Shown in pieces: positions 3,591 through 39,905 of a stretch of DNA of 39,905 nucleotides. A program made the position numbers and the translations under genes. The first letter of the stretch is position 1, and the number at the start of each line of letters is the position of its first letter. The notes beneath the pieces were generated by a model that saw only the letters and a list, made by a program, of their open reading frames with translations, was not told the DNA's origin and ran no database searches. Origin of the DNA: an uncultured Nitrososphaerota archaeon (GTDB lineage Archaea; Thermoproteota; EX4484-205; DTQO01); NCBI GenBank assembly GCA_964631995.1, contig CAZWAU010000037.1:1-39905 (forward strand), read 5' to 3'.

Positions 3591-3908
3591 GGCGGCGGGT
3601 AAGGCTGGGAGGCTTGCCCTCTCCTACGAACCTGAAACGGGCAACATGCTGGGGCCAGTAACCTGAGGAGCGCGACCAAGCGCTCCAGGGGGCCTGCCTG
3701 CCACTGGGTTGAAGTCCAGCTCTGTCGGGCGAGTGCAGGAGTAGGCGCATCTGTAGGGGTGCGCCGTATCCCTAACCGACGAATGCGCCAGGCCCGGGAG
3801 GGAGCAGCGGTAAGGCGGGCTACTTTGCGCTGGCAGAAAAACTGGGCTGACTGGCGGAGGCAGGTGCTCCTGAAGAATGCTGGCCGCCATCCGAGGGAGC
3901 CGCCGCCA
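3591..3908 (+). ncRNA. Signal recognition particle RNA (archaeal 7S/SRP RNA)
   Basis: About 318 nt and GC-rich. 5' GGCGGCGG pairs with 3' CCGCCGCC. The helix-8 motif GCCAGGCCCGGGAGGGAGCAGCGGUAAGG matches the conserved archaeal CCAGGCCCGGAAGGGAGCAACGGUAGG. ORF-track entries here (3569-3925, minus strand) have non-protein-like composition. Confidence 0.85.
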
Positions 3909-6428: not shown

Positions 6429-7601
6429 TTGCCAGAAGTTCGGGGAAGCGAAACGCTGAGAAAATACGAGGAGATAAACGAGAAGATAGGAAGGGGAGAG
6501 GCAACTGTTTTGACAGCCGAGGAGTTCGTTGCTGCTGTGGAGAGCAAGGGACTTGAGAAAGCTGCTAGGGAGGTCGATGTTGTCACAACTGGAACATTCG
6601 GTGCAATGTGCAGCAGTGGTGCGTTCTTGAACTTCGGCCACTCAGACCCTCCAATAAAGATGTGGCACTGCTGGTTGAATGATGTTCCTGCATACAAGGG
6701 GCTGGCAGCGGTCGATGCCTACATCGGGGCGACAGCAGCCAGCGAGAGCATGGGATTCGAGTATGGCGGAGGGCACGTCATAGAGGATCTGGTGTCAGGG
6801 CGCGAGATCAGGCTTCGCGCTGATGCATATGGAACCGATTGCTATCCAAGAAGGTACATAGAGACGACCTTGACTATCGAGGACCTTAACCAGGCTGTCC
6901 TACTGAATCCGAGAAATGCCTACGAACGCTATAATGCTGCGACAAACAGCACAAGCAGGACGATCTACACATACATGGGCACTTTACTGCCCAACTATGG
7001 AAATGTGACCTTCTCTGGCTCTGGCCAGCTAAGCCCTCTCCACAAGGACATGGGTTTCGAAACGATCGGAGTTGGGACAAGAATATTCCTTGGCGGTGGC
7101 ACAGGATATGTTATCGGAGAGGGGACACAACACTGCCCCCAGAAGCGGTTTGGGACGCTCATGGTCAAGGGAAATTTAAAGCAGATGAGTGGCCGTTACT
7201 TGAGGGGCGCGACCTTTCACAGGTATGGCCCAACAATGTACGTAGGCCTTGGTCTGCCGATACCGATCATAAACGAGAACGTTGCCAGAACAGCCGCACT
7301 TAGCGATTCGGAGATATTTACAGACCTGATCGATTACGGTGTTCCTTCGAGGGAAAGGCCCACTGTCAAGCAGGTTTCCTACAGGGAGCTGAAGTCTGGA
7401 AAGGTTCTCATCGGAGACGAAGAGGTGCATAGCTCGCCACTATCGAGCTTGAAGATGGCCAAAGAGGTGGCTGAAGTTCTTCGCGACATGATATTGGAGA
7501 AAAGGTTCTTCCTGAACAGGCCCGCCGAGCTTCTGCCTGCAGAGATGGAGTTCAAACCATTGCTGGAAAAAAGCCACGCAACGGTCGCGGTCGGGAGGTG
7601 A
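6429..7601 (+). CDS. Homocysteine biosynthesis enzyme, sulfur-incorporation type (COG1900/DUF39), without CBS domains
   Basis: INEKIGRGEATVLTAEEF...EVDVVTTGTFGAMCSSGAFLNFGHSDPPIKM...LNDVPAYKGLAAVDAYIGAT matches the DUF39 family (MA1821/MJ0100-like). TTG start is uncertain. Confidence 0.85.
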   Translation: MPEVRGSETLRKYEEINEKIGRGEATVLTAEEFVAAVESKGLEKAAREVDVVTTGTFGAMCSSGAFLNFGHSDPPIKMWHCWLNDVPAYKGLAAVDAYIGATAASESMGFEYGGGHVIEDLVSGREIRLRADAYGTDCYPRRYIETTLTIEDLNQAVLLNPRNAYERYNAATNSTSRTIYTYMGTLLPNYGNVTFSGSGQLSPLHKDMGFETIGVGTRIFLGGGTGYVIGEGTQHCPQKRFGTLMVKGNLKQMSGRYLRGATFHRYGPTMYVGLGLPIPIINENVARTAALSDSEIFTDLIDYGVPSRERPTVKQVSYRELKSGKVLIGDEEVHSSPLSSLKMAKEVAEVLRDMILEKRFFLNRPAELLPAEMEFKPLLEKSHATVAVGR

Positions 7602-33011: not shown

Positions 33012-33226
33012 TGGAATACGTCCGACATGATACGCCACCTAGAGAATGGCTTGGCTCAGGCGCCGAAGAAGGGCGTGGCAAGCTGCGATAAGCCTCGGGT
33101 AGGAGCAAGTATCCTGCGATCCGAGGATCCCCGAATTGGATACCTTCCGGCGGTGCGCGCAAGCGTGCCGTTGGAACACCCGAAAGGGTGAGGTAACCCA
33201 CCGAAAGGAAACATCTGAGTAGGTGG

Positions 33227-33258
<32 letters not shown>

Positions 33259-34948
33259 ACGGCGAGTGAAAAGGGAAAAGCCCAAACCGAACCGCGCGTC
33301 GAAAGGCGCGTGGGATGTGGGGTTGAGGACCGGACCTCCTCTCTGCCTGCGAAGTCGAAGAGGCCTGGAAAGGCCCACGAAAATGGGTGATAGTCCCGTA
33401 GACGTTGGCCGGCGTGAGTTGGGTCTGAGTTCCTGAGTACTGCGCCTCGGATATGGCGCAGGAAGCTGGGAGCTATTCACTTCCAAGGCTAAATACGTCC
33501 TGAGACCGATAGCGCACCAGTACGGTGACGGAAAGCTGAAAAGAACCCCGAGAGGGGTGTGAAAAGAGCCTGAAACTAGGTGGTTACAGACGTTCACGGC
33601 CTGAAAGGGTTTGAATCCCCCAAAAGTTTCCGGTCGAGAGGCTGGAAGCGATGGGGGGCTACCAGGGTCGTGAGTTTCGTCTTGAAACACGAGCCGGGGA
33701 GTTTATGGCCGTGGCAAGCCTAAGGGGTACTATCCCCGTAAGCGTAGGGAAGCCAACTAGCCTGCAACCGCCTTAACGGCGGCGAGAGGCGGGGTAGCGA
33801 TTGCCCGTAGTCACGGCCTTAAGACTAGAAACCGAACGATCTAATCCTGGGCAGGGCGAAGCCGGGCGAAAGCTCGGTGGAGGCTCGAAGGGGTCCTGAC
33901 GTGCAATTCGGTCCTCAGACCTGGGATTAGGGGACAAAAACCAATCTAGTTCGGTGATAGCTAGTTCCTTCCGAAATGGATCTCAGTCCAGCCCGCCCGG
34001 AGGAGGTCGGCAGGGTAGAGCACTGATCGATGGGCAAGGCCTCGAAAGAGTCCACCCGTCTTTCAAACTCCGAATCTGTCGACACCGTAGATGGGCGGAG
34101 ACGGGTTCCAGGGGGTAAGCTCCTGGACCGAGAGGGGAACAACCCAGACTAGGGTTAAGGTCCCTAAATGCTGGCTAAGTGTTATTCGAAAAGGCGTCTC
34201 GACTCTCAGACAGCGGGAAGGTAGGCTTAGAAGCAGCCATCCTTTAAAGAGTGCGTAACAGCTCACCCGCCGAGAGTCAAGGCCCTGAAAATGGACGGGG
34301 CTCAAGCCAGCTGCCGATACCCTAGAGCGCAGCCTGAGGCTGCGTCTGGTAGGAAGGCGTCCGAGTTGGGCCGAAGCTGGGCCGTGAGGTCCGGTGGACC
34401 GACTTGGATTGCAGATCCCGGTGGTAGTAACAGCTAAGACAGGTGAGAATCCTGTCCGCCTGAAGGACAAGGGTTCCCCGGCAACGCGTCGTCAGCCGGG
34501 GGTTAGTCGATCCTAAGGCCTCGTTTAACATGCGAGGTCGAAAAAGGGAAGCCGGTTTACATTCCGGCACCAGGGGGGTACACGCGGTAACGCAAGCCCT
34601 CACGCTGACGCTTCGGGGCAGGTTGAGCGGGGCTGTCGCTCCGTCTAACTGTCCAAGCCTGGGAAGTACCGTAAAGGTGAGAACTAGGCGAAGGCAGGAA
34701 TGGCTTGCCGTTAGGCGAGTTCAGCTGGGCCCTGGAGCCATGGAAAAGGCGTGGGGGATGGATCCCCTCTGATCGTACCAAGATCCGACACTGGTGTTCC
34801 TGCGTGAGAAGCGCAAGGCGTCTCGGGGTATTCCACGGCGAGGGAACTTGGCAATCTAGCCCCGTAACTTAGGGATAAGGGGTGCCTGAGGCTGGGCTTC
34901 GGCTTGGTCTCAGGTCGCAGTAACTAAGGGGTCCCGACTGTTTACTAA

Positions 34949-35332
34949 ACGGGCAAAGGCACCGGCTTAATGTTCGAGATGGAAAAAAGGTAGAATTCCC
35001 CGGGGACGGAAGTTGCAAGAAAATCTGTGCCTGCTGCGTTCCAACAGACCGGACGAATTCGAAGATTTTTCAGAAATAGCAAAAAGCTCCAATGCGAGAA
35101 TAGATCGGCAGAACTTCGGATTCCTTTGGCTCAGAGATTCGTTGCGGATTTGTTTGGTGCAGAGGCACGCTGAAGATGGTGTCGTTGTAAGAATTCATAG
35201 CTTTACAGAATGCATGAAACCTGGCGCGGAGGGCTCTCGCATCTTCGCGCTCGGATTGGGTGTTGAGTTTTCCTAGAAAATCTGAGAAGTTTGTTCCGTC
35301 TCAAAGGCCAAAGGTGCGCTTGCCCGAGTAAC
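34949..35332 (+). other. 23S rRNA intron A (384 nt)
   Basis: Canonical hBHBh' motif: outer helix TGTT/AACA, central helix TACT/AGTA, bulges AAA (34947-49) and ACA (35331-33), inner helix CGGGCAA/TTGCCCG. Splicing gives GACTGTTTACTAA|AAACACAGG, the same length as the universal GACUGUUUAAUAAAAACACAGG. Confidence 0.85.
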
Positions 35333-35595
35333 AAACACAGGGAGCCGCTAGTCCGAAAGGATGTGCACGGCTCTTGAATCCTGGCCAGTGGCGGTATCTG
35401 AATCCCAGGTTCAACTGGGCCAAGGACCGCTAAACGCCCGAGGTAACTCTGACCTTGTTAAGGTAGCCAAATGCCTTGTCGGGTAAGTTCCGACGTGCTT
35501 GAATGGAGCAACGAGGGCCCCGCTGTCCCCGCCTGGATCCCGGTGAACCCACATAACGTGGCTGCACAGTCCACGATCTCCCAACGGGACAAGAA

Positions 35596-35625
35596 ATTCT
35601 CTTAGAAAACCTAGGAGAACTTGCC
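35596..35625 (+). other. 23S rRNA intron B (30 nt) between E. coli-equivalent positions 2060 and 2061
   Basis: Central helix CAAG (35590-93) / CTTG (35620-23), bulges AAA (35594-96) and CCG (35624-26), inner 9-bp hairpin TTCTCTTAG-AAAAC-CTAGGAGAA, outer helix GGA/TCC. Splicing gives AAGAA|GTCCACGTGGAGCTTTACTG, the same length as AAGAAGACCCCGUGGAGCUUUACUG. Confidence 0.8.
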
Positions 35626-36127
35626 GTCCACGTGGAGCTTTACTGCATCCTGTAGCTGGGATGTGGTCGCGGATGCAGAGTGTAGGCGGGAGCCGTTACA
35701 CTCAACCCTTCCGGGGGTTGGGAAGGCGACAATGGAACACCGCCCGTCAGTGACCTATTCTCTTACCGGGTGAAAGCCCGGGACAACTATTGGTGGGCAG
35801 TTCGGCTGGGGCGGCCCCCTCTTGAAAAGATATCGAGAGGGCCCTAAGGTCAGCTCAGACGGAACAGAAACCCGTCGTAGAGTGCAAGGGCAAAAGCTGG
35901 CCTGATTCGGTCCTGCAAAGTAGAGGACCGAAAGGCGAAAGCCTGGCCTAGCGATCCTCCATGTCCTTATGGATAGGGGCTGGAGGTGACAGAAAAGTTA
36001 CCCCGTGAGTAATTGGCTCGTCGCGGGCAATAGTTCATATTGACCCCGCGGTTTGGTACCTCGTCGTCGGCTCTTCCCATCCTGGCGGTGCATAAGCCGC
36101 CAAGGGTAGGGCTGCTCGCCCGTCAAA

Positions 36128-36223
<96 letters not shown>

Positions 36224-36557
36224 TTATCTGTTGGGAGTGCTGGTCGCTTGAGGGGAAGGTGTCCACAGTACGAGAGGAACTGGGCGCCGCGGCCTCCGGT
36301 TTACCGGTTGTCCGACAGGGCAACGCCGGGCAGCTGCGCCGTCTTCGATAAGACCTGAAAGCATCTAAGGTCGAAGCGAATCCCGAAAATAAGCGGCCAA
36401 TCCGAGAAACCATGGCAGACCTGGTAACAGGCCTGCTCTCTCGGACGAGGGCTGGGATAGTAGATCCCGTTGATAGGTGGGGGGTGTACGCGCGAAGGCT
36501 TCGGCCGACGCGTTCAGCCCGCCCATACTAATCGCCCAAGGTGTCGGGCGGAAAAAA

Positions 36558-36736: not shown

Positions 36737-37876
36737 CTAGGAGAAGATTGCCCTCCATACATGAGGCTCATACTCCCTGTATGAGTGTAACAATGCATCT
36801 TTCTCAGATATGCTTATGATCGTTTTCAGGTTCCTCGAAATCCTTTCATTGAATCTACTTGTCCCTATGTCTTCAGGATCAAGCTCGAAGAACAGCGTGA
36901 GGATAGCATAGTTAGCATCCCTGTTCGGCTCCCCTCCCCACCATAGGTAGACATCTGAAGGATTAACTTTGTCCTCCTCAACCAAAAGATTGCACAGATC
37001 TATTACCCAACTCCGAGGAAAGCTGTTGTAATTCCTAGAAATTATATTCTTCAGGGCTATTTCGTCCTTCTCAGGCAATTTTATGACTTTGTTTCTGAGC
37101 CAACTAATGTATTGCTCTAGAACTTTTTGAAAGTGCCTGTCCTCAACCTTAAGGGCCTCGTTAAGTTGCTCCAGAGTCTTTATCCTCCATGTTCTAGAGG
37201 CAGCGAAGACATAACCACCTTCCCAATGTCTACCCCTGAGTTTGTCGCCACTAAAGTATCTCTCCAGCAACATCTCAAACTGTTCTCTATTCATCTCATT
37301 AGCATGCCAAAACTTTTCTTTAATTCTCTTAACAAGTCTTTCATCTCCTTTAGCTTTCTTTGTTATGACAGGAAGAAGATCCTCAACGACATATGAAGCA
37401 GAACCGTAACACTCGGGGCGATACAGCCAGTTGGAGGAGATCCAAATCTTCCCATCGTCCTTCCTTTGCTGGACTTCGATCAGGGATTCTTGGCATTGTA
37501 CTGGATGATCTATATCAGGTCTTATCCTCTCGCCCAAGCTATCTGATATCAAATCCTCCTGTTTGGTAGTATACTTATAGTACTTGTAGGGATTAATGTG
37601 AGTGAAGTAGTATGCTTGCCATGCAAAGAGCCCCCGTAATAACGTTATGTCTCTGCCAAATATATCATTGAAGTAGTAACTTGTTATTTCATTTATGCCC
37701 ATCGGAATCCAATTATTTGGTACTGCCCTAATATCCCCCTCAATATCAATTGATCCACCCCTCCTTGCATTATCATATATCAGCTTCCAGCCATATATTT
37801 CCTTGTGCACTCTATTGATCTCCTTGAATAACTTGGTCCTCTCCATAACCGTCAGGATATAGGTCAAGCAAATCAT
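36737..37876 (-). CDS. Hypothetical 379-aa protein (no recognisable domain); intact copy of the pseudogene at 12841-13401
   Basis: Long ORF in a visibly AT-rich island. It is rich in W/Y/K/E, with no TM helix and no motif I recognise. The start may be the second ATG at 37846 (MERTKLF). Confidence 0.6.
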   Translation of the reverse strand: MICLTYILTVMERTKLFKEINRVHKEIYGWKLIYDNARRGGSIDIEGDIRAVPNNWIPMGINEITSYYFNDIFGRDITLLRGLFAWQAYYFTHINPYKYYKYTTKQEDLISDSLGERIRPDIDHPVQCQESLIEVQQRKDDGKIWISSNWLYRPECYGSASYVVEDLLPVITKKAKGDERLVKRIKEKFWHANEMNREQFEMLLERYFSGDKLRGRHWEGGYVFAASRTWRIKTLEQLNEALKVEDRHFQKVLEQYISWLRNKVIKLPEKDEIALKNIISRNYNSFPRSWVIDLCNLLVEEDKVNPSDVYLWWGGEPNRDANYAILTLFFELDPEDIGTSRFNERISRNLKTIISISEKDALLHSYREYEPHVWRAIFS

Positions 37877-37915: not shown

Positions 37916-38314
37916 TTAAGGTATCGTTACGGCTTTAACGTATCTTCCTCCCGAAGCAGTCCTTATTGCAACCTCATAGGTTACCCCATTTCTAAAAGTA
38001 TCTAGGCTAGCGTGAAGCCTCAACCTGGCCTTTGAGCCAGAAGGTAGCTCAAGGGGAAATGGATTCTTTCCTTTTGGTATCATCTCTATACCATTTATCT
38101 CAAGAGCTACTACAGTAAGCTTTCCCCCTCCAATATTTTGAAAGCTTATGACTATCTCCGCCTCACCATCTTTGATCGTAGCATAGGCATGGTCGAATCT
38201 AAGCTCCTCGCGCCTCATGAATAGACGAACGAAGTTGGGATAGTAGGTCATCAGAGCTATCGCAAGCGCAACCGCTACTGAGGCCAAGACTAGAGTCGAG
38301 ACTAGTTTATCCAT
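37916..38314 (-). CDS. Small N-terminally anchored beta-rich protein
   Basis: 132 aa. One N-terminal hydrophobic helix (LVSTLVLASVAVALAIALM), then a beta-sandwich-like alternating pattern. Its start overlaps the stop of the upstream 531-aa gene by 13 nt. Confidence 0.5.
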   Translation of the reverse strand: MDKLVSTLVLASVAVALAIALMTYYPNFVRLFMRREELRFDHAYATIKDGEAEIVISFQNIGGGKLTVVALEINGIEMIPKGKNPFPLELPSGSKARLRLHASLDTFRNGVTYEVAIRTASGGRYVKAVTIP

Positions 38315-39897
38315 ATGTTAGAACCTCTCCTTATCGATTTTTCCTCTTGGCTTGGAGTTGAAGTGCTTTGATTGCTCGTCGTCTGTTTGTTTTGTTGCGT
38401 TTGGCTCTGACTAGAGCTGCTAGGGGTCTTACCAGAATTTGTTACATTACTCTTGGTCTTCGTTCCGCTTGATGCGCTTCCCTGGCTCGATGTCTTGCCC
38501 GTGCTGGAAGGCGCTGTCTCACTATGGAACTCGATGTTGGTCTGTTCAAACCTCTTCGCATCCTTTCCAGAGTAGTTCGGAGTTCCAACTCTGTGTACCG
38601 GATCAAGATCTCCATTAGAGTTTATTACGCGGCCATAAACTACGGTCTTGTCTGCCACCTTTACGTTCTTCATGTTCGTGCCGTAGACCTCAACATTCTT
38701 CAGCTCCACATTCTCTAGGTTTGAATACTCTACGTTGGCCTTCGTGAGCTTGGAGTTGGTCGCGTTTACGTTTATCAAGTTCGAGTTCTCAGCTTTCGTT
38801 CTTGTAAGGTTGGAATTTGTAGCGTTCACATTTCTCAAGTTGCTGTCAATGGCCGTGCAGGATGTCAGCCTGCTTCCCTGTACAGTGCTACCCACGAGTT
38901 TCGTGTTTGTGATCTCGCTTCTCGAGATGTTCGCAGAGTAGGAGATGTCGCTGCGTTCTATCCTTGAGTTGTCGACATTCGCGACGAACGTGAGGTTGCT
39001 TCTTATGATGCTGGTATTGCTGAGGTCCAAGACCCACATGAGGGTACTGTTCATTACGGTGCAGTTCAAGATGTTAGCTGAATAGGCAATGGAGCTGTCC
39101 TCGACGTGGCTTCCGACCAAGTTCACAACGCTCACCAGAGTAGAGTTCAATATCCTGCACAGGTCGATGACGCTGTTGATTATGGTCGAGCAGACGGCCA
39201 GGGAGTTCTGCAAGATCGAGTCGTAAATCATTTTGGCCGAGACGTTGCTGTCCGTAATAGTGCTACCTGCGATTGTTGTGCCAGTGCTTCTAACATTCTG
39301 GAGGTAGCTTCCCCCTACAGAGGTAAGGGCCAACCTGCTGCCTAAGACTGTTGATCCATCGACGACCGAGTGGTCGAGATATGAATCCTGAAACTCGCCA
39401 ATCCACTTGCCCGTATTGTCGGTAACGTTTACAGCCTTGCCATCAGTTCCTGTAAGTAAACCTGATATAAGACCTAGTCCAGGGATTACAAAGGCTCCAT
39501 AAAATTGGTCTAGCTTATTCTGACACACTCTTCCGAGAACTAGATCTACTTGGGGCTTATTTTGGTATATCTCGATCCCGTCTTTTCCGAGTATAAGACC
39601 AAGTTGGGCTTTCTCTTCCTTAAATACAGCTCTAATATCCGCTAAACGACCATTACAATCTCCGCTCGTGGTCTTAAATTCAACATAGAATAATATTTTA
39701 CCATCTTTCAAAACAATGGCATCTGGACCAGATACTTTTGGTCTAACTCCATTAACTATTTTAACTTCTACATCTTTTAAGCCCAGTTTTACACATGCTT
39801 TCTCGGTTTCTGATTTTAAAACCATTTCTCCAATATTTGCGAGTTCCTTAAATGTATCTTCATCATACTTAGAGCACGTTTCAAAACCCTTATTCAT
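38302..39897 (-). CDS. Hjc-like PD-(D/E)xK nuclease domain fused to a long pentapeptide-repeat region and a Ser/Thr/Gln-rich tail
   Basis: The N-terminal ~120 aa contain SGPDAIVLKDGKILFYVEFKTTSG (compare Hjc G.s..DLVA......IEVK). Residues ~150-430 have a 5-residue periodicity, e.g. NSNLR NVNAT NSNLT RTKAE NSNLI NVNAT NSKLT KANVE YSNLE NVELK. The C-terminal ~80 aa are low-complexity S/T/Q. No signal peptide. The start is 8 nt from the window edge, so the upstream context is unseen. Confidence 0.6.
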   Translation of the reverse strand: MNKGFETCSKYDEDTFKELANIGEMVLKSETEKACVKLGLKDVEVKIVNGVRPKVSGPDAIVLKDGKILFYVEFKTTSGDCNGRLADIRAVFKEEKAQLGLILGKDGIEIYQNKPQVDLVLGRVCQNKLDQFYGAFVIPGLGLISGLLTGTDGKAVNVTDNTGKWIGEFQDSYLDHSVVDGSTVLGSRLALTSVGGSYLQNVRSTGTTIAGSTITDSNVSAKMIYDSILQNSLAVCSTIINSVIDLCRILNSTLVSVVNLVGSHVEDSSIAYSANILNCTVMNSTLMWVLDLSNTSIIRSNLTFVANVDNSRIERSDISYSANISRSEITNTKLVGSTVQGSRLTSCTAIDSNLRNVNATNSNLTRTKAENSNLINVNATNSKLTKANVEYSNLENVELKNVEVYGTNMKNVKVADKTVVYGRVINSNGDLDPVHRVGTPNYSGKDAKRFEQTNIEFHSETAPSSTGKTSSQGSASSGTKTKSNVTNSGKTPSSSSQSQTQQNKQTTSNQSTSTPSQEEKSIRRGSNIWIN

Positions 39898-39905
39898 GCC
39901 TTCTG

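What the first reader, a model, noticed from the sequence alone, without database searches (positions are those of the whole stretch)
38302..39897. Fusion of an Hjc-like PD-(D/E)xK nuclease domain to a ~280-residue pentapeptide-repeat region and an S/T/Q-rich tail
The N-terminal domain carries the resolvase/restriction-type core (helix with Glu, then SGPD-x14-EFK). The centre is an uninterrupted run of roughly 50 five-residue repeats of the [STAV][NDK][LFVM]xx type. In proteins such as Qnr and MfpA, repeats of this type form a right-handed quadrilateral beta-helix that mimics B-DNA. A nuclease tethered to a DNA-shaped rod is an architecture I do not recognise from described families. It could be a decoy or anti-defence factor, a defence effector, or a structural protein. 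It lies in a visibly AT-rich island and is translationally coupled to a small anchored protein.
Basis: partly seen in the sequence, partly recalled or inferred. Interest (0 to 1): 0.65.

Follow-up and report, generated by a model that had tools for sequence, protein, structure and literature searches.

The report
Truncated nuclease-fold/pentapeptide protein of Brockarchaeota
The ORF is real and does join a restriction-endonuclease-like fold to a long pentapeptide beta-helix, but it is the cut-off 3' part of a much larger, unannotated, membrane-associated protein found only in Brockarchaeota-type archaea, and the "nuclease tied to a DNA mimic" idea is only weakly supported.

Summary
The 531-aa ORF (38302-39897, minus strand) is confirmed. 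It has a 49-pentad pentapeptide-repeat beta-helix, an S/T/Q-rich tail, a 13-nt overlap with a 132-aa single-pass membrane protein, and GC lower than the rest of the window.

The N-terminal ~110 residues model as an alpha-beta-beta-beta-alpha-beta core. Its best structural matches are nearly all PD-(D/E)xK nucleases, at weak E-values. D59/E73/K75 are present here. Across the family the two acidic residues are kept but the Lys is not.

The ORF is not a complete protein. About 10 relatives carry 300-850 further N-terminal residues, and one intact 1385-aa form starts with six TM helices. In this strain the ORF begins inside a multi-copy sequence at the contig end, while 96%-identical sister strains read on upstream.

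The family has 23 hits among 1.84 billion representatives. It always precedes p132 and a conserved 380-aa protein, and the only named sources are Brockarchaeota/Thermoproteota MAGs.

The pentapeptide module is missing in several intact relatives and its net charge here is +3, so it looks like a spacer rather than DNA-like. No defence, viral or adhesin family matches. One clade adds a tightly coupled TGT-like gene.

Function and cellular compartment remain unresolved.

The parts
38302..39897 (-). 531-aa ORF. It is the 3' part (nuclease-fold domain + connector + pentapeptide helix + tail) of a gene that is 550-1385 aa long in relatives.
39866..39905 (.). Multi-copy sequence at the window end. 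It contains the ATG and codons 1-11. It is an assembly breakpoint in three assemblies and the point where 96%-identical sister strains diverge (39872).
   Evidence: Depth rises from 17 to 67-97 (run X1) and from 13 to 142-214 (X6). A 181-nt contig in X7 has depth 124 against about 12 for the genome. Loose ends differ between contigs. An in-frame TAG lies 5 codons upstream in L001.
39562..39870 (-). PD-(D/E)xK-like (restriction-endonuclease-fold) domain, aa 10-112.
   Evidence: AF2 secondary structure H13-37, E43-47, E60-64, E67-76, H82-93, E99-104, E107-112. Foldseek hits.
39673..39723 (-). Putative active-site stretch D59 ... E73-F-K75.
   Evidence: Read from the sequence. Family alignment: Asp in 9 of 10 sequences covering that column, Glu in 9 of 11, Lys only in P0001 and P0002.
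39358..39561 (-). Connector, aa 113-180. It holds the most conserved motifs of the family: N113/P115 and GLGLISG...VTDNTGKWIGEFQDSYLDH.
   Evidence: Invariant columns.
38623..39357 (-). Pentapeptide-repeat right-handed quadrilateral beta-helix: 49 pentads, aa 181-425, about 12 coils.
38302..38622 (-). S/T/Q-rich low-complexity tail, aa 426-531, ending RGSNIWIN. The last 13 nt overlap the start of p132.
   Evidence: (pLDDT <50)
37916..38314 (-). p132: one N-terminal TM helix followed by a domain of about 95 aa. It is translationally coupled to the big ORF and is 71-86% identical to its relatives in the other loci.
36737..37876 (-). p379: conserved soluble partner with no known domain. It is the most widely retained gene of the module. 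The start is probably at M11.
33018..36551 (+). LSU rRNA gene, convergent with the module. The same neighbour lies downstream of the module in L003 and L008.

Best explanation
The ORF is the surviving 3' portion of a lineage-specific (Brockarchaeota/Thermoproteota) multidomain gene.

Architecture of intact relatives, in order:
- an optional six-TM anchor plus an acidic region of about 230 aa;
- a ~280-aa 'N-ext' domain;
- a restriction-endonuclease-fold domain;
- a conserved GLGLLSG...DSYLDH connector;
- an optional pentapeptide beta-helix;
- an S/T-rich tail.

The gene is always co-translated with a small single-pass membrane protein (p132) and followed by a conserved 380-aa soluble protein (p379).

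Shown:
- the domain map;
- the truncation of the window's copy at a multi-copy repeat;
- the optional status of the pentapeptide module;
- retention of the two acidic residues and loss of the Lys;
- the conserved 13-nt coupling to p132.

Inferred:
- The conserved working core is N-ext plus the nuclease-fold domain.
- This core is held at the membrane by p132 and, in long forms, by its own TM segment.
- The pentapeptide helix is a rigid spacer or scaffold of about 6 nm between that core and the tail/p132. It is not a DNA decoy.
- The core most likely binds or cuts nucleic acid at the membrane. The grounds are its fold and, in one clade, a tightly coupled TGT-like base-exchange-type gene.
- The window's copy lacks N-ext and any anchor of its own, so it is either a decaying remnant or a reduced variant that still pairs with p132.
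For: Family and architecture. An exhaustive HMMER search of the N-ext + mid-domain profile found only 23 hits in 1.84e9 representatives, including P0013 (1385 aa), P0011 (969 aa), P0010 (550 aa) and P0002 (816 aa). The tblastn domain map of about 30 loci shows the order BIG -> p132 -> p379.

Truncation. Three assemblies end within 16 nt of the ATG. Depth rises 4- to 16-fold over 39852-39905 and the flanks differ between contigs. Sister-strain contigs continue in frame as ..AVYYKEEFETKYDEDTFKEL, while the window strain reads *NSEGMNKGFETCSKYDED.

Fold..

Residue conservation..

Pentapeptide module optional. L012, L019, L030 and L033/P0010 go straight from the mid domain to p132. The module is vestigial in L004, L015 and L017.

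Charge. Net +3 in the window's pentapeptide region.

Coupling. The 13-nt overlap is present in five loci.

Membrane association. P0013 has six strong TM segments with K/R-rich alternate loops. p132 has an N-terminal TM helix.

TGT-like partner. A 280-aa gene abuts the big gene in L004, L012, L031 and L033 and is 84-87% conserved. Its only matches are Pfam TGT (E 0.0012-0.26) and NCBIfam TgtA (E 0.019).
Against: - The nuclease-fold model is only moderately confident (pLDDT 67-85). No PDB match reaches E<1e-3. Only two unnamed BFVD matches do.
- A sequence profile of the domain hits nothing in the PDB except a chance-level dCache domain (E 0.018).
- The Lys of the triad is not conserved, so catalysis is doubtful.
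- The cellular compartment is unresolved. Six TM helices and the positive-inside rule put the rest of P0013 outside the cell. The stand-alone forms have no signal peptide. A weakly hydrophobic segment (Kyte-Doolittle hydropathy (KD) 0.85-1.23) might be a seventh TM helix.
- The TGT-like hits are below the curated cut-offs, and that gene is absent from the window's clade.
- p379 and N-ext have no recognisable fold or family.
- No RNA data were found.
Confidence: 0.4

Rival explanations
1. Envelope or surface protein. The long form is a membrane-anchored cell-surface protein. Everything after TM6 (nuclease-fold domain, beta-helix, S/T-rich tail) would lie outside the cell. The beta-helix would be a rigid stalk, the tail a glycosylated linker, and p132 a co-anchored partner. 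The nuclease fold would be a structural or binding module.
For: - P0013 has six strong TM helices. The K/R-rich loops 23-41, 90-104 and 148-172 fall on one side. The 67 residues after TM6 carry net charge -9.
- The region after the TM helices in L003 holds NST/NKT/NTT sequons and a G/S/T-rich linker.
- The family has a 100-aa S/T/Q-rich tail.
- Its modules evolve quickly and are mosaic.
- There is a precedent for a pentapeptide-repeat domain on the non-cytoplasmic side of a multi-pass membrane protein: the luminal domain of SV2 (PMC8145042).
Against: - The stand-alone forms P0005, P0010 and P0012 have no signal peptide or TM helix and sit next to a cytoplasmic-type TGT-like gene.
- N-glycosylation sequons are not enriched (14 against 10.3 +/- 2.8).
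- No S-layer, adhesin or pilin family matches.
- p379 has no signal peptide.
Confidence: 0.27
2. A cytoplasmic, active PD-(D/E)xK nuclease is tethered to a B-DNA-shaped pentapeptide rod that acts as a decoy for DNA-binding proteins, serving defence or anti-defence.
For: - The nuclease fold.
- A full D/E/K triad in the window protein and in P0002, and D..DIK in P0011.
- The beta-helix matches MfpA, Qnr and AlbG structurally.
- The module has lower GC than its flanks in every locus checked.
- The gene shows mosaicism and frequent decay.
Against: - The pentapeptide module is dispensable in the family.
- Its net charge is +3 here and -9 in P0013. That is variable and not strongly acidic.
- Scores against the Qnr and MfpA models are far below the cut-offs (16.3 against 240; for P0002, 11.2 against 360).
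- The Lys is not conserved.
- There is no PADLOC hit, no viral relative of p379, and the neighbours are housekeeping genes.
Confidence: 0.1
3. In this genome the ORF does nothing. It would be a pseudogene remnant left after a repeat insertion or recombination removed the 5' half. The open frame and the ATG would be fortuitous.
For: - The ATG and the first 11 codons lie in a multi-copy sequence, and an in-frame stop lies 5 codons upstream.
- The big gene is visibly decaying elsewhere. L003 has a frameshift and an in-frame stop. L030 has a deletion and a frameshift. L004, L015 and L017 have lost the helix.
- p379 stays intact throughout.
Against: - The 531 codons remain open.
- The 13-nt coupling to p132 is intact.
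- The sequence is identical in independent assemblies.
Confidence: 0.2

Closest known systems
Pentapeptide-repeat proteins (Pfam PF00805/PF13599; HetL 3du1, MfpA 2bm4, QnrB1 2xtw, AlbG 2xt2)
   Same: - Five-residue repeat with a hydrophobic centre.
- Predicted right-handed quadrilateral beta-helix.
- Passes the Pfam gathering scores.
   Different: - Embedded in a 500-1400-aa multidomain protein.
- Net charge near neutral, not acidic.
- Far below the cut-offs of the Qnr, MfpA and HetL equivalog models.
- The module is optional within its own family.
Archaeal Holliday-junction resolvase Hjc and other small PD-(D/E)xK nucleases (2eo0, 4tkd, 2wiw; RecU 1zp7)
   Same: - alpha-beta-beta-beta-alpha-beta core.
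- Asp at the start of strand 2.
- E-x-K on strand 3 in the window protein.
   Different: - No sequence-level match to any Hjc or PD-(D/E)xK profile or PDB chain.
- An internal domain of a large protein, not a ~130-aa dimeric enzyme.
- The Lys is not conserved in the family.
Multi-pass membrane proteins carrying a pentapeptide domain: SV2 luminal domain (PMC8145042); HglK of Anabaena (from memory, not checked here)
   Same: An N-terminal polytopic membrane anchor followed by a pentapeptide beta-helix, as in the long form P0013.
   Different: - No sequence relationship.
- Here a nuclease-fold domain and N-ext lie between the anchor and the helix.
- Archaeal and lineage-specific.
- The membrane side is unresolved.
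TGT-fold base-exchange enzymes (tRNA-guanine transglycosylase; DNA-modifying DpdA)
   Same: - In the short-form clade a 280-aa gene abuts the big gene. Its only matches are TGT models.
- It has PDSYTY and CxCxxC...HNL motifs. Their resemblance to the TGT catalytic Asp and zinc site is from memory.
   Different: - Scores lie below the curated cut-offs.
- No queuosine/preQ0 synthesis genes or other Dpd genes were seen nearby.
- Absent from the window and from L003.

Membership tests
Pentapeptide-repeat protein superfamily (PF00805/PF13599) | At least 8 contiguous pentapeptides and a profile score above the gathering cut-off | tested here: met
   49 pentads in one register. PF00805 scores 36.4 against a cut-off of 20.2; PF13599 scores 39.9 against 38.
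Pentapeptide-repeat protein superfamily (PF00805/PF13599) | Right-handed quadrilateral beta-helix | tested here: met
   The AF2 model has pLDDT 76-93 over aa 245-420. Foldseek matches HetL, MfpA, Qnr and AlbG at E 3e-6 to 1e-3. This is a prediction, not an experiment.
Qnr/MfpA/AlbG-type DNA-mimicking topoisomerase protectors | Membership of the curated equivalog models | tested here: not met
   The NCBIfam Qnr model scores 16.3 against a cut-off of 240. MfpA appears only for P0002, at 11.2 against 360.
Qnr/MfpA/AlbG-type DNA-mimicking topoisomerase protectors | Strongly electronegative, DNA-like surface of the helix. The requirement itself is from established knowledge of MfpA. | tested here: not met
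   The helix region has 20 K/R and 17 D/E, net +3. P0013 has net -9 over 250 aa.
Qnr/MfpA/AlbG-type DNA-mimicking topoisomerase protectors | Stand-alone ~180-220-aa protein that dimerises tail to tail | tested here: not met
   The helix is an internal module of a 531-1385-aa protein. Dimerisation cannot be tested with these tools.
Hjc (archaeal Holliday-junction resolvase) | Sequence match to the Hjc family or to solved Hjc chains | tested here: not met
   No Pfam hit for aa 1-180 at E<=1. phmmer and profile searches of the PDB find no Hjc.
Hjc (archaeal Holliday-junction resolvase) | Small homodimeric stand-alone enzyme | tested here: not met
   The domain lies inside 550-1385-aa proteins in every complete relative.
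PD-(D/E)xK (restriction-endonuclease-like) fold superfamily | alpha-beta-beta-beta-alpha-beta core fold | tested here: met
   Secondary structure and pLDDT 67-85. Nearly all of the top 50 PDB hits, and most of the named BFVD hits, are PD-(D/E)xK proteins. E-values are weak: 7e-3 at best in the PDB and 4e-4 in BFVD.
PD-(D/E)xK (restriction-endonuclease-like) fold superfamily | Conserved catalytic D ... (D/E)-x-K | tested here: inconclusive
   D59, E73 and K75 are present here and in P0002. The Asp is kept in 9 of 10 sequences and the Glu in 9 of 11. The Lys column reads A, E or T in the others. P0011 has D-I-K two residues earlier. P0030 lacks all three.
Known anti-phage defence systems (PADLOC-DB 2.0) | Match of any component to a defence-system model | tested here: not met
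   No hits for the big protein, p132, p379 or P0013. P0010 gives one chance-level ZorC hit, E 0.035.
Provirus or mobile element | Viral relatives, an integrase, or att-type repeats around the module | tested here: inconclusive
   - p379 has no relatives in IMG/VR, and the 22-nt core of the repeat is absent there.
- No integrase appears in four annotated neighbourhoods.
- L003 has a direct duplication of the LSU 3' end flanking 12.3 kb that contains the module.
- The module has lower GC than its flanks.
S-layer, adhesin or archaeal pilin families | Profile match, or a class III signal peptide on p132 | tested here: not met
   No Pfam or NCBIfam hits for the tail, the region after the TM helices, or p132. 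Only the L005 ortholog has K-A before the hydrophobic stretch; the window has K-L. The pilin signal-peptide rule used for this comparison is from memory.

The most novel reading that the evidence does not exclude
The module (BIG + p132 + p379, with a TGT-like gene in one clade) is a previously unseen archaeal membrane-coupled system that acts on nucleic acid. In long forms, an envelope-exposed acidic loop would sense an external event such as virus attachment or DNA entry. The signal would pass through the TM bundle to a cytoplasmic restriction-endonuclease-fold effector, held on a rigid pentapeptide rod next to p132. The TGT-like enzyme would mark self nucleic acid by base exchange.
Probability: 0.12. 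Interest if true: 0.8.

Novelty: new variant of a known kind. Interest (0 to 1): 0.42.

Why it matters
Both folds are well known. Their combination, the wider architecture (TM anchor, N-ext, nuclease fold, pentapeptide rod, S/T tail) and the conserved three- to four-gene module have no described counterpart.

They appear confined to one uncultured archaeal lineage. Only 23 hits turned up among 1.84 billion representative proteins.

If the nuclease-fold core is active at the membrane, this would be a new kind of archaeal nucleic-acid-handling or conflict system. If the protein is surface-exposed, it would be the first clue to the cell envelope of Brockarchaeota.

For annotation there is a practical lesson. 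The 531-aa ORF should not be taken as a complete protein.

Tried and rejected
- **Sequence searches of the N-terminal domain.** Pfam, NCBIfam, PHROGs, PADLOC and the PDB gave nothing. A 13-sequence profile against the PDB gave only TlpA dCache at E 0.018-0.044 with a poor alignment. I treat this as chance, because two structure libraries agree on PD-(D/E)xK.
- **First AF2 run.** The whole protein with 5 sequences left aa 1-208 below pLDDT 50 and was useless for the domain.
- **Second word-indexed homolog search.** Run with the mid-domain profile, it returned only 6 fragments.
- **Viral origin.** p379 has no relatives in IMG/VR. The mid-domain alignment was too variable for that scan. The repeat core is absent from IMG/VR.
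- **N-glycosylation sequons.** Enrichment as a test for surface exposure was not significant.
- **Charge bias.** Bias around the weak hydrophobic segment and around the p132 TM helix was tested to settle topology. The result was inconsistent between orthologs.
- **CRISPR repeat idea.** I considered that the multi-copy 35-40-nt sequence at the window end is a CRISPR repeat. I rejected this because unitigs of 181-266 nt that run through it have 3-10 times the genome depth. That means a longer repeat.
- **Second p132 set in L004.** A second 642/132/303-aa gene set in L004 looked like a paralogous copy of the module. BLAST shows it is unrelated.
- **RNA runs.** None were available.
- **Sister-strain junction.** Its 30-mer is in none of the fetched loci, so the upstream part of the sister allele could not be read.
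Full report
**1. Observation**

The ORF at 38302-39897 (minus strand) is 531 aa long.

Pfam finds Pentapeptide and Pentapeptide_4 above their gathering scores. Laid out in fives, residues 181-425 form 49 pentads without a register break. The hydrophobic centre position is 62% L/F/V/I/M/W/C against 17-28% at the other four positions.

AF2 models aa 245-420 as a regular beta-helix with pLDDT 76-93. Foldseek matches that model to HetL, MfpA, Qnr and AlbG.

Other points also hold:
- The tail, aa 426-531, has 37 S/T in 106 residues and is modelled as disordered.
- The stop region overlaps the start of a 132-aa ORF by 13 nt. This also explains the conserved C-terminal ...IWIN.
- The three genes at the window end have 42-45% GC against 50.5% for the window, and lower GC3.

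**2. The ORF is a fragment of something larger**

The host is an archaeon: the window holds an archaeal LSU rRNA and an SRP RNA.

Homologs are very few. The complete ones are much longer. P0002 has 816 aa and P0005 has 626 aa, both with about 300 extra N-terminal residues.

An exhaustive HMMER search with that N-terminal extension plus the nuclease-like domain found only 23 proteins among 1.84 billion representatives. These include P0013 (1385 aa), P0011 (969 aa, cut by a contig end) and P0010 (550 aa).

P0013 has this order of modules:
- six strongly hydrophobic segments, aa 4-193;
- an acidic region of about 230 aa;
- a further ~125-aa segment, which begins with the weakly hydrophobic stretch discussed in section 6;
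- a ~280-aa 'N-ext' domain;
- the nuclease-like domain;
- the pentapeptide helix;
- the S/T tail;
- the ending ...RGSNIWIN.

The window, L001 and L002 all stop within 16 nt of the ATG. Contigs from public runs show why:
- Depth over 39852-39905 jumps from 17 to 67-97 in run X1 and from 13 to 142-214 in X6.
- Many contigs share only 39866-39905 and have different flanks.
- In X7 a 181-nt contig through this stretch has depth 124, against about 12 for the genome.
- Contigs of about 96%-identical sister strains follow the gene to 39872 and then continue for at least 1.2 kb (X2). In the gene's frame they read ..AVYYKEEFETKYDEDTFKEL, which resembles the family at that point.
- The window's strain reads *NSEGMNKGFETCSKYDED, with a stop five codons before the ATG.

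In this strain, therefore, the 5' part has been replaced or interrupted by a multi-copy sequence. That sequence also supplies the start codon.

**3. The 'Hjc-like' domain**

Sequence methods find nothing.

With a 13-sequence alignment of the domain, AF2 gives pLDDT 67-85 for aa 10-110. The order of elements is helix 13-37, strands 43-47, 60-64 and 67-76, helix 82-93, then strands 99-104 and 107-112. D59 sits at the start of the second strand and E73-x-K75 on the third. That is the canonical layout, as I know it from the superfamily.

Foldseek results:
- Against the PDB no hit is better than E 7e-3. Nearly all of the top 50 are PD-(D/E)xK proteins: Hjc from three archaea, BpuSI, PrfA/RecU, orthomyxo- and bunyavirus cap-snatching endonucleases, tRNA-splicing endonuclease, Cas4 and HsdR.
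- Against BFVD there are two unnamed hits below 1e-3. The named hits include PD-(D/E)xK nucleases, VRR-NUC and resolvases.

I accept the fold with moderate confidence.

Residue conservation is mixed:
- The first Asp is kept in 9 of the 10 sequences that cover that column.
- The Glu is kept in 9 of 11.
- The Lys is present only in the window protein and P0002. The other sequences have A, E or T in that column.
- Most of the others have D-[IV]-E; P0011 has D-I-K shifted by two residues.

This fits either a divergent active site (BamHI has E-x-E; from memory) or an inactivated binding module.

**4. The pentapeptide module is an accessory**

The tblastn domain map of about 30 loci shows three states:
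- Helix present: window, L003, L005, L006, L007, L014, L018, L021 and L027.
- Helix absent, with the mid domain running straight into p132: L012, L019, L030 and L033 (P0010 ends after three pentads with ...LWIK).
- Helix vestigial: L004, L015 and L017.

Its net charge is +3 in the window and -9 in P0013. Scores against the Qnr, MfpA and HetL equivalog models are far below their cut-offs.

A B-DNA decoy should be conserved and acidic, and this module is neither. A helix of about 12 coils (roughly 6 nm, taking 4.8 A per coil from known PRP structures) used as a rigid spacer fits better.

**5. Partners and setting**

BIG -> p132 -> p379 is the conserved order.
- p132 has an N-terminal TM helix and is 71-86% identical to its relatives in the other loci.
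- p379 has 53 clusters, all 45-100% identical to the window's copy and all unnamed. None has a Pfam, NCBIfam, PHROG or PDB match.
- The only organism names attached to p379 relatives are Candidatus Brockarchaeota and Thermoproteota MAGs.
- Runs holding the window's sequence are hot-spring and sediment metagenomes.

In the short-form clade, a 280-aa gene abuts the big gene with no gap in L004, L012, L031 and L033. It is 84-87% conserved. Its only matches are TGT models below their cut-offs.

Neighbours are ordinary metabolic and ribosomal genes that differ from locus to locus. No integrase or known defence genes appear. Even so, the module has lower GC than its flanks everywhere I checked.

In the window, L003 and L008 it lies next to the 3' end of the LSU rRNA gene. 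In L003, a direct duplicate of about 215 nt of the LSU 3' end and its downstream flank brackets 12.3 kb that contains the module.

The modules have different histories:
- The window's mid domain and p379 are closest to L003 (67% and 71%).
- Its helix is closest to L007 (82%) and L006 (76%). Its p132 is closest to L006 (86%) and L020 (85%).

The big gene is often damaged. L003 has a frameshift and an in-frame stop, and L030 has a deletion and a frameshift. p379 stays intact.

**6. Compartment**

Six TM helices with K/R-rich alternate loops, followed by a strongly acidic stretch, put the remainder of P0013 outside the cell.

Against this, the stand-alone forms have no signal peptide and sit beside a cytoplasmic-type enzyme gene.

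A conserved, weakly hydrophobic segment (Kyte-Doolittle hydropathy (KD) 1.23 in P0013, about 1.16 in L003, 0.85 in P0011) could be a seventh TM helix that would reconcile the two. Flanking charges do not settle it. I leave this open, at roughly even odds.

**7. Explanation and rivals**

My best reading (confidence 0.4) is a lineage-specific, membrane-associated module:
- The conserved core is N-ext plus a restriction-endonuclease-fold domain. It probably acts on nucleic acid.
- p132 is a co-translated membrane partner.
- The pentapeptide helix is an optional spacer.
- The window's copy is a 5'-truncated allele.

Rivals:
- an extracellular envelope protein (0.27);

**8. Comparison and novelty**

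The protein is a member of the pentapeptide-repeat superfamily and, at fold level, of the PD-(D/E)xK superfamily. It is not a member of Hjc, Qnr/MfpA, any PADLOC system or any adhesin family.

The architecture and the operon are undescribed. Literature searches turned up no such fusion, and the PRP review records archaeal sequences as about 2% of the superfamily.

I rate it a new variant of known kinds, of moderate interest. It is limited by the truncated state of this copy and by the lack of functional evidence.

Noticed in passing
window 39866-39905 (continues beyond the window end): A multi-copy sequence with 4-16 times the depth of the adjacent gene. It is shared by many contigs with different flanks in several hot-spring and sediment runs. 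Unitigs of 181-266 nt run through it. It is probably the end of an IS- or MITE-like repeat, and its identity is unknown.
   Followed up: partly
window 33018-36551: The LSU rRNA gene spans 3534 nt but covers all 2987 positions of the Rfam archaeal model. About 550 nt are therefore extra (introns or expansion segments). No long sense-strand ORF lies inside it.
   Followed up: no
L003 5311-5525 and 17784-17947: A direct duplication of about 77 nt of downstream flank plus about 140 nt of the LSU rRNA 3' end brackets a 12.3-kb segment. The segment holds an ATPase_2/DUF234 gene, an RDD gene, the module and an NTase gene. It looks like an att-type footprint of an island inserted at the rRNA 3' end, but no integrase was seen.
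   Followed up: partly
L004 9158-10000; L012 4538-5377; L031 7585-8427; L033 7086-7928: A 280-aa gene directly abuts the short-form big gene and is 84-87% conserved. Its only matches are TGT/TgtA models below their cut-offs. It carries PDSYTY and CxCxxC...HNL motifs. It may be a divergent base-exchange enzyme (DpdA-like?).
   Followed up: partly
L006 6263-7210 (hit at 6800-7063): Downstream of p378, a further ORF running off the contig has N-ext similarity (31-43% identity). This suggests tandem paralogous copies of the big gene.
   Followed up: no
L008 3950-4081 (-) and 4570-4695 (+): Isolated fragments of the mid domain and of the p379 C-terminus lie between the module and the LSU rRNA gene. 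They look like a decayed second copy.
   Followed up: no
window 38210-39000: The pentapeptide/tail/p132-start block has several-fold higher contig depth than the rest of the gene in runs X2 and X4. The block is shared at >=90% identity by several strains or paralogs, which fits its separate recombination history.
   Followed up: partly
L003 14025-14732: A 235-aa nucleotidyltransferase-fold gene follows p377 in L003 (MTPAP-like central domain, E 5.6e-5; NTP_transf_2, E 0.004). It is not present in the window.
   Followed up: no
window 3593-3905: Archaeal SRP RNA (Rfam RF01857, 114.7 bits).
   Followed up: no
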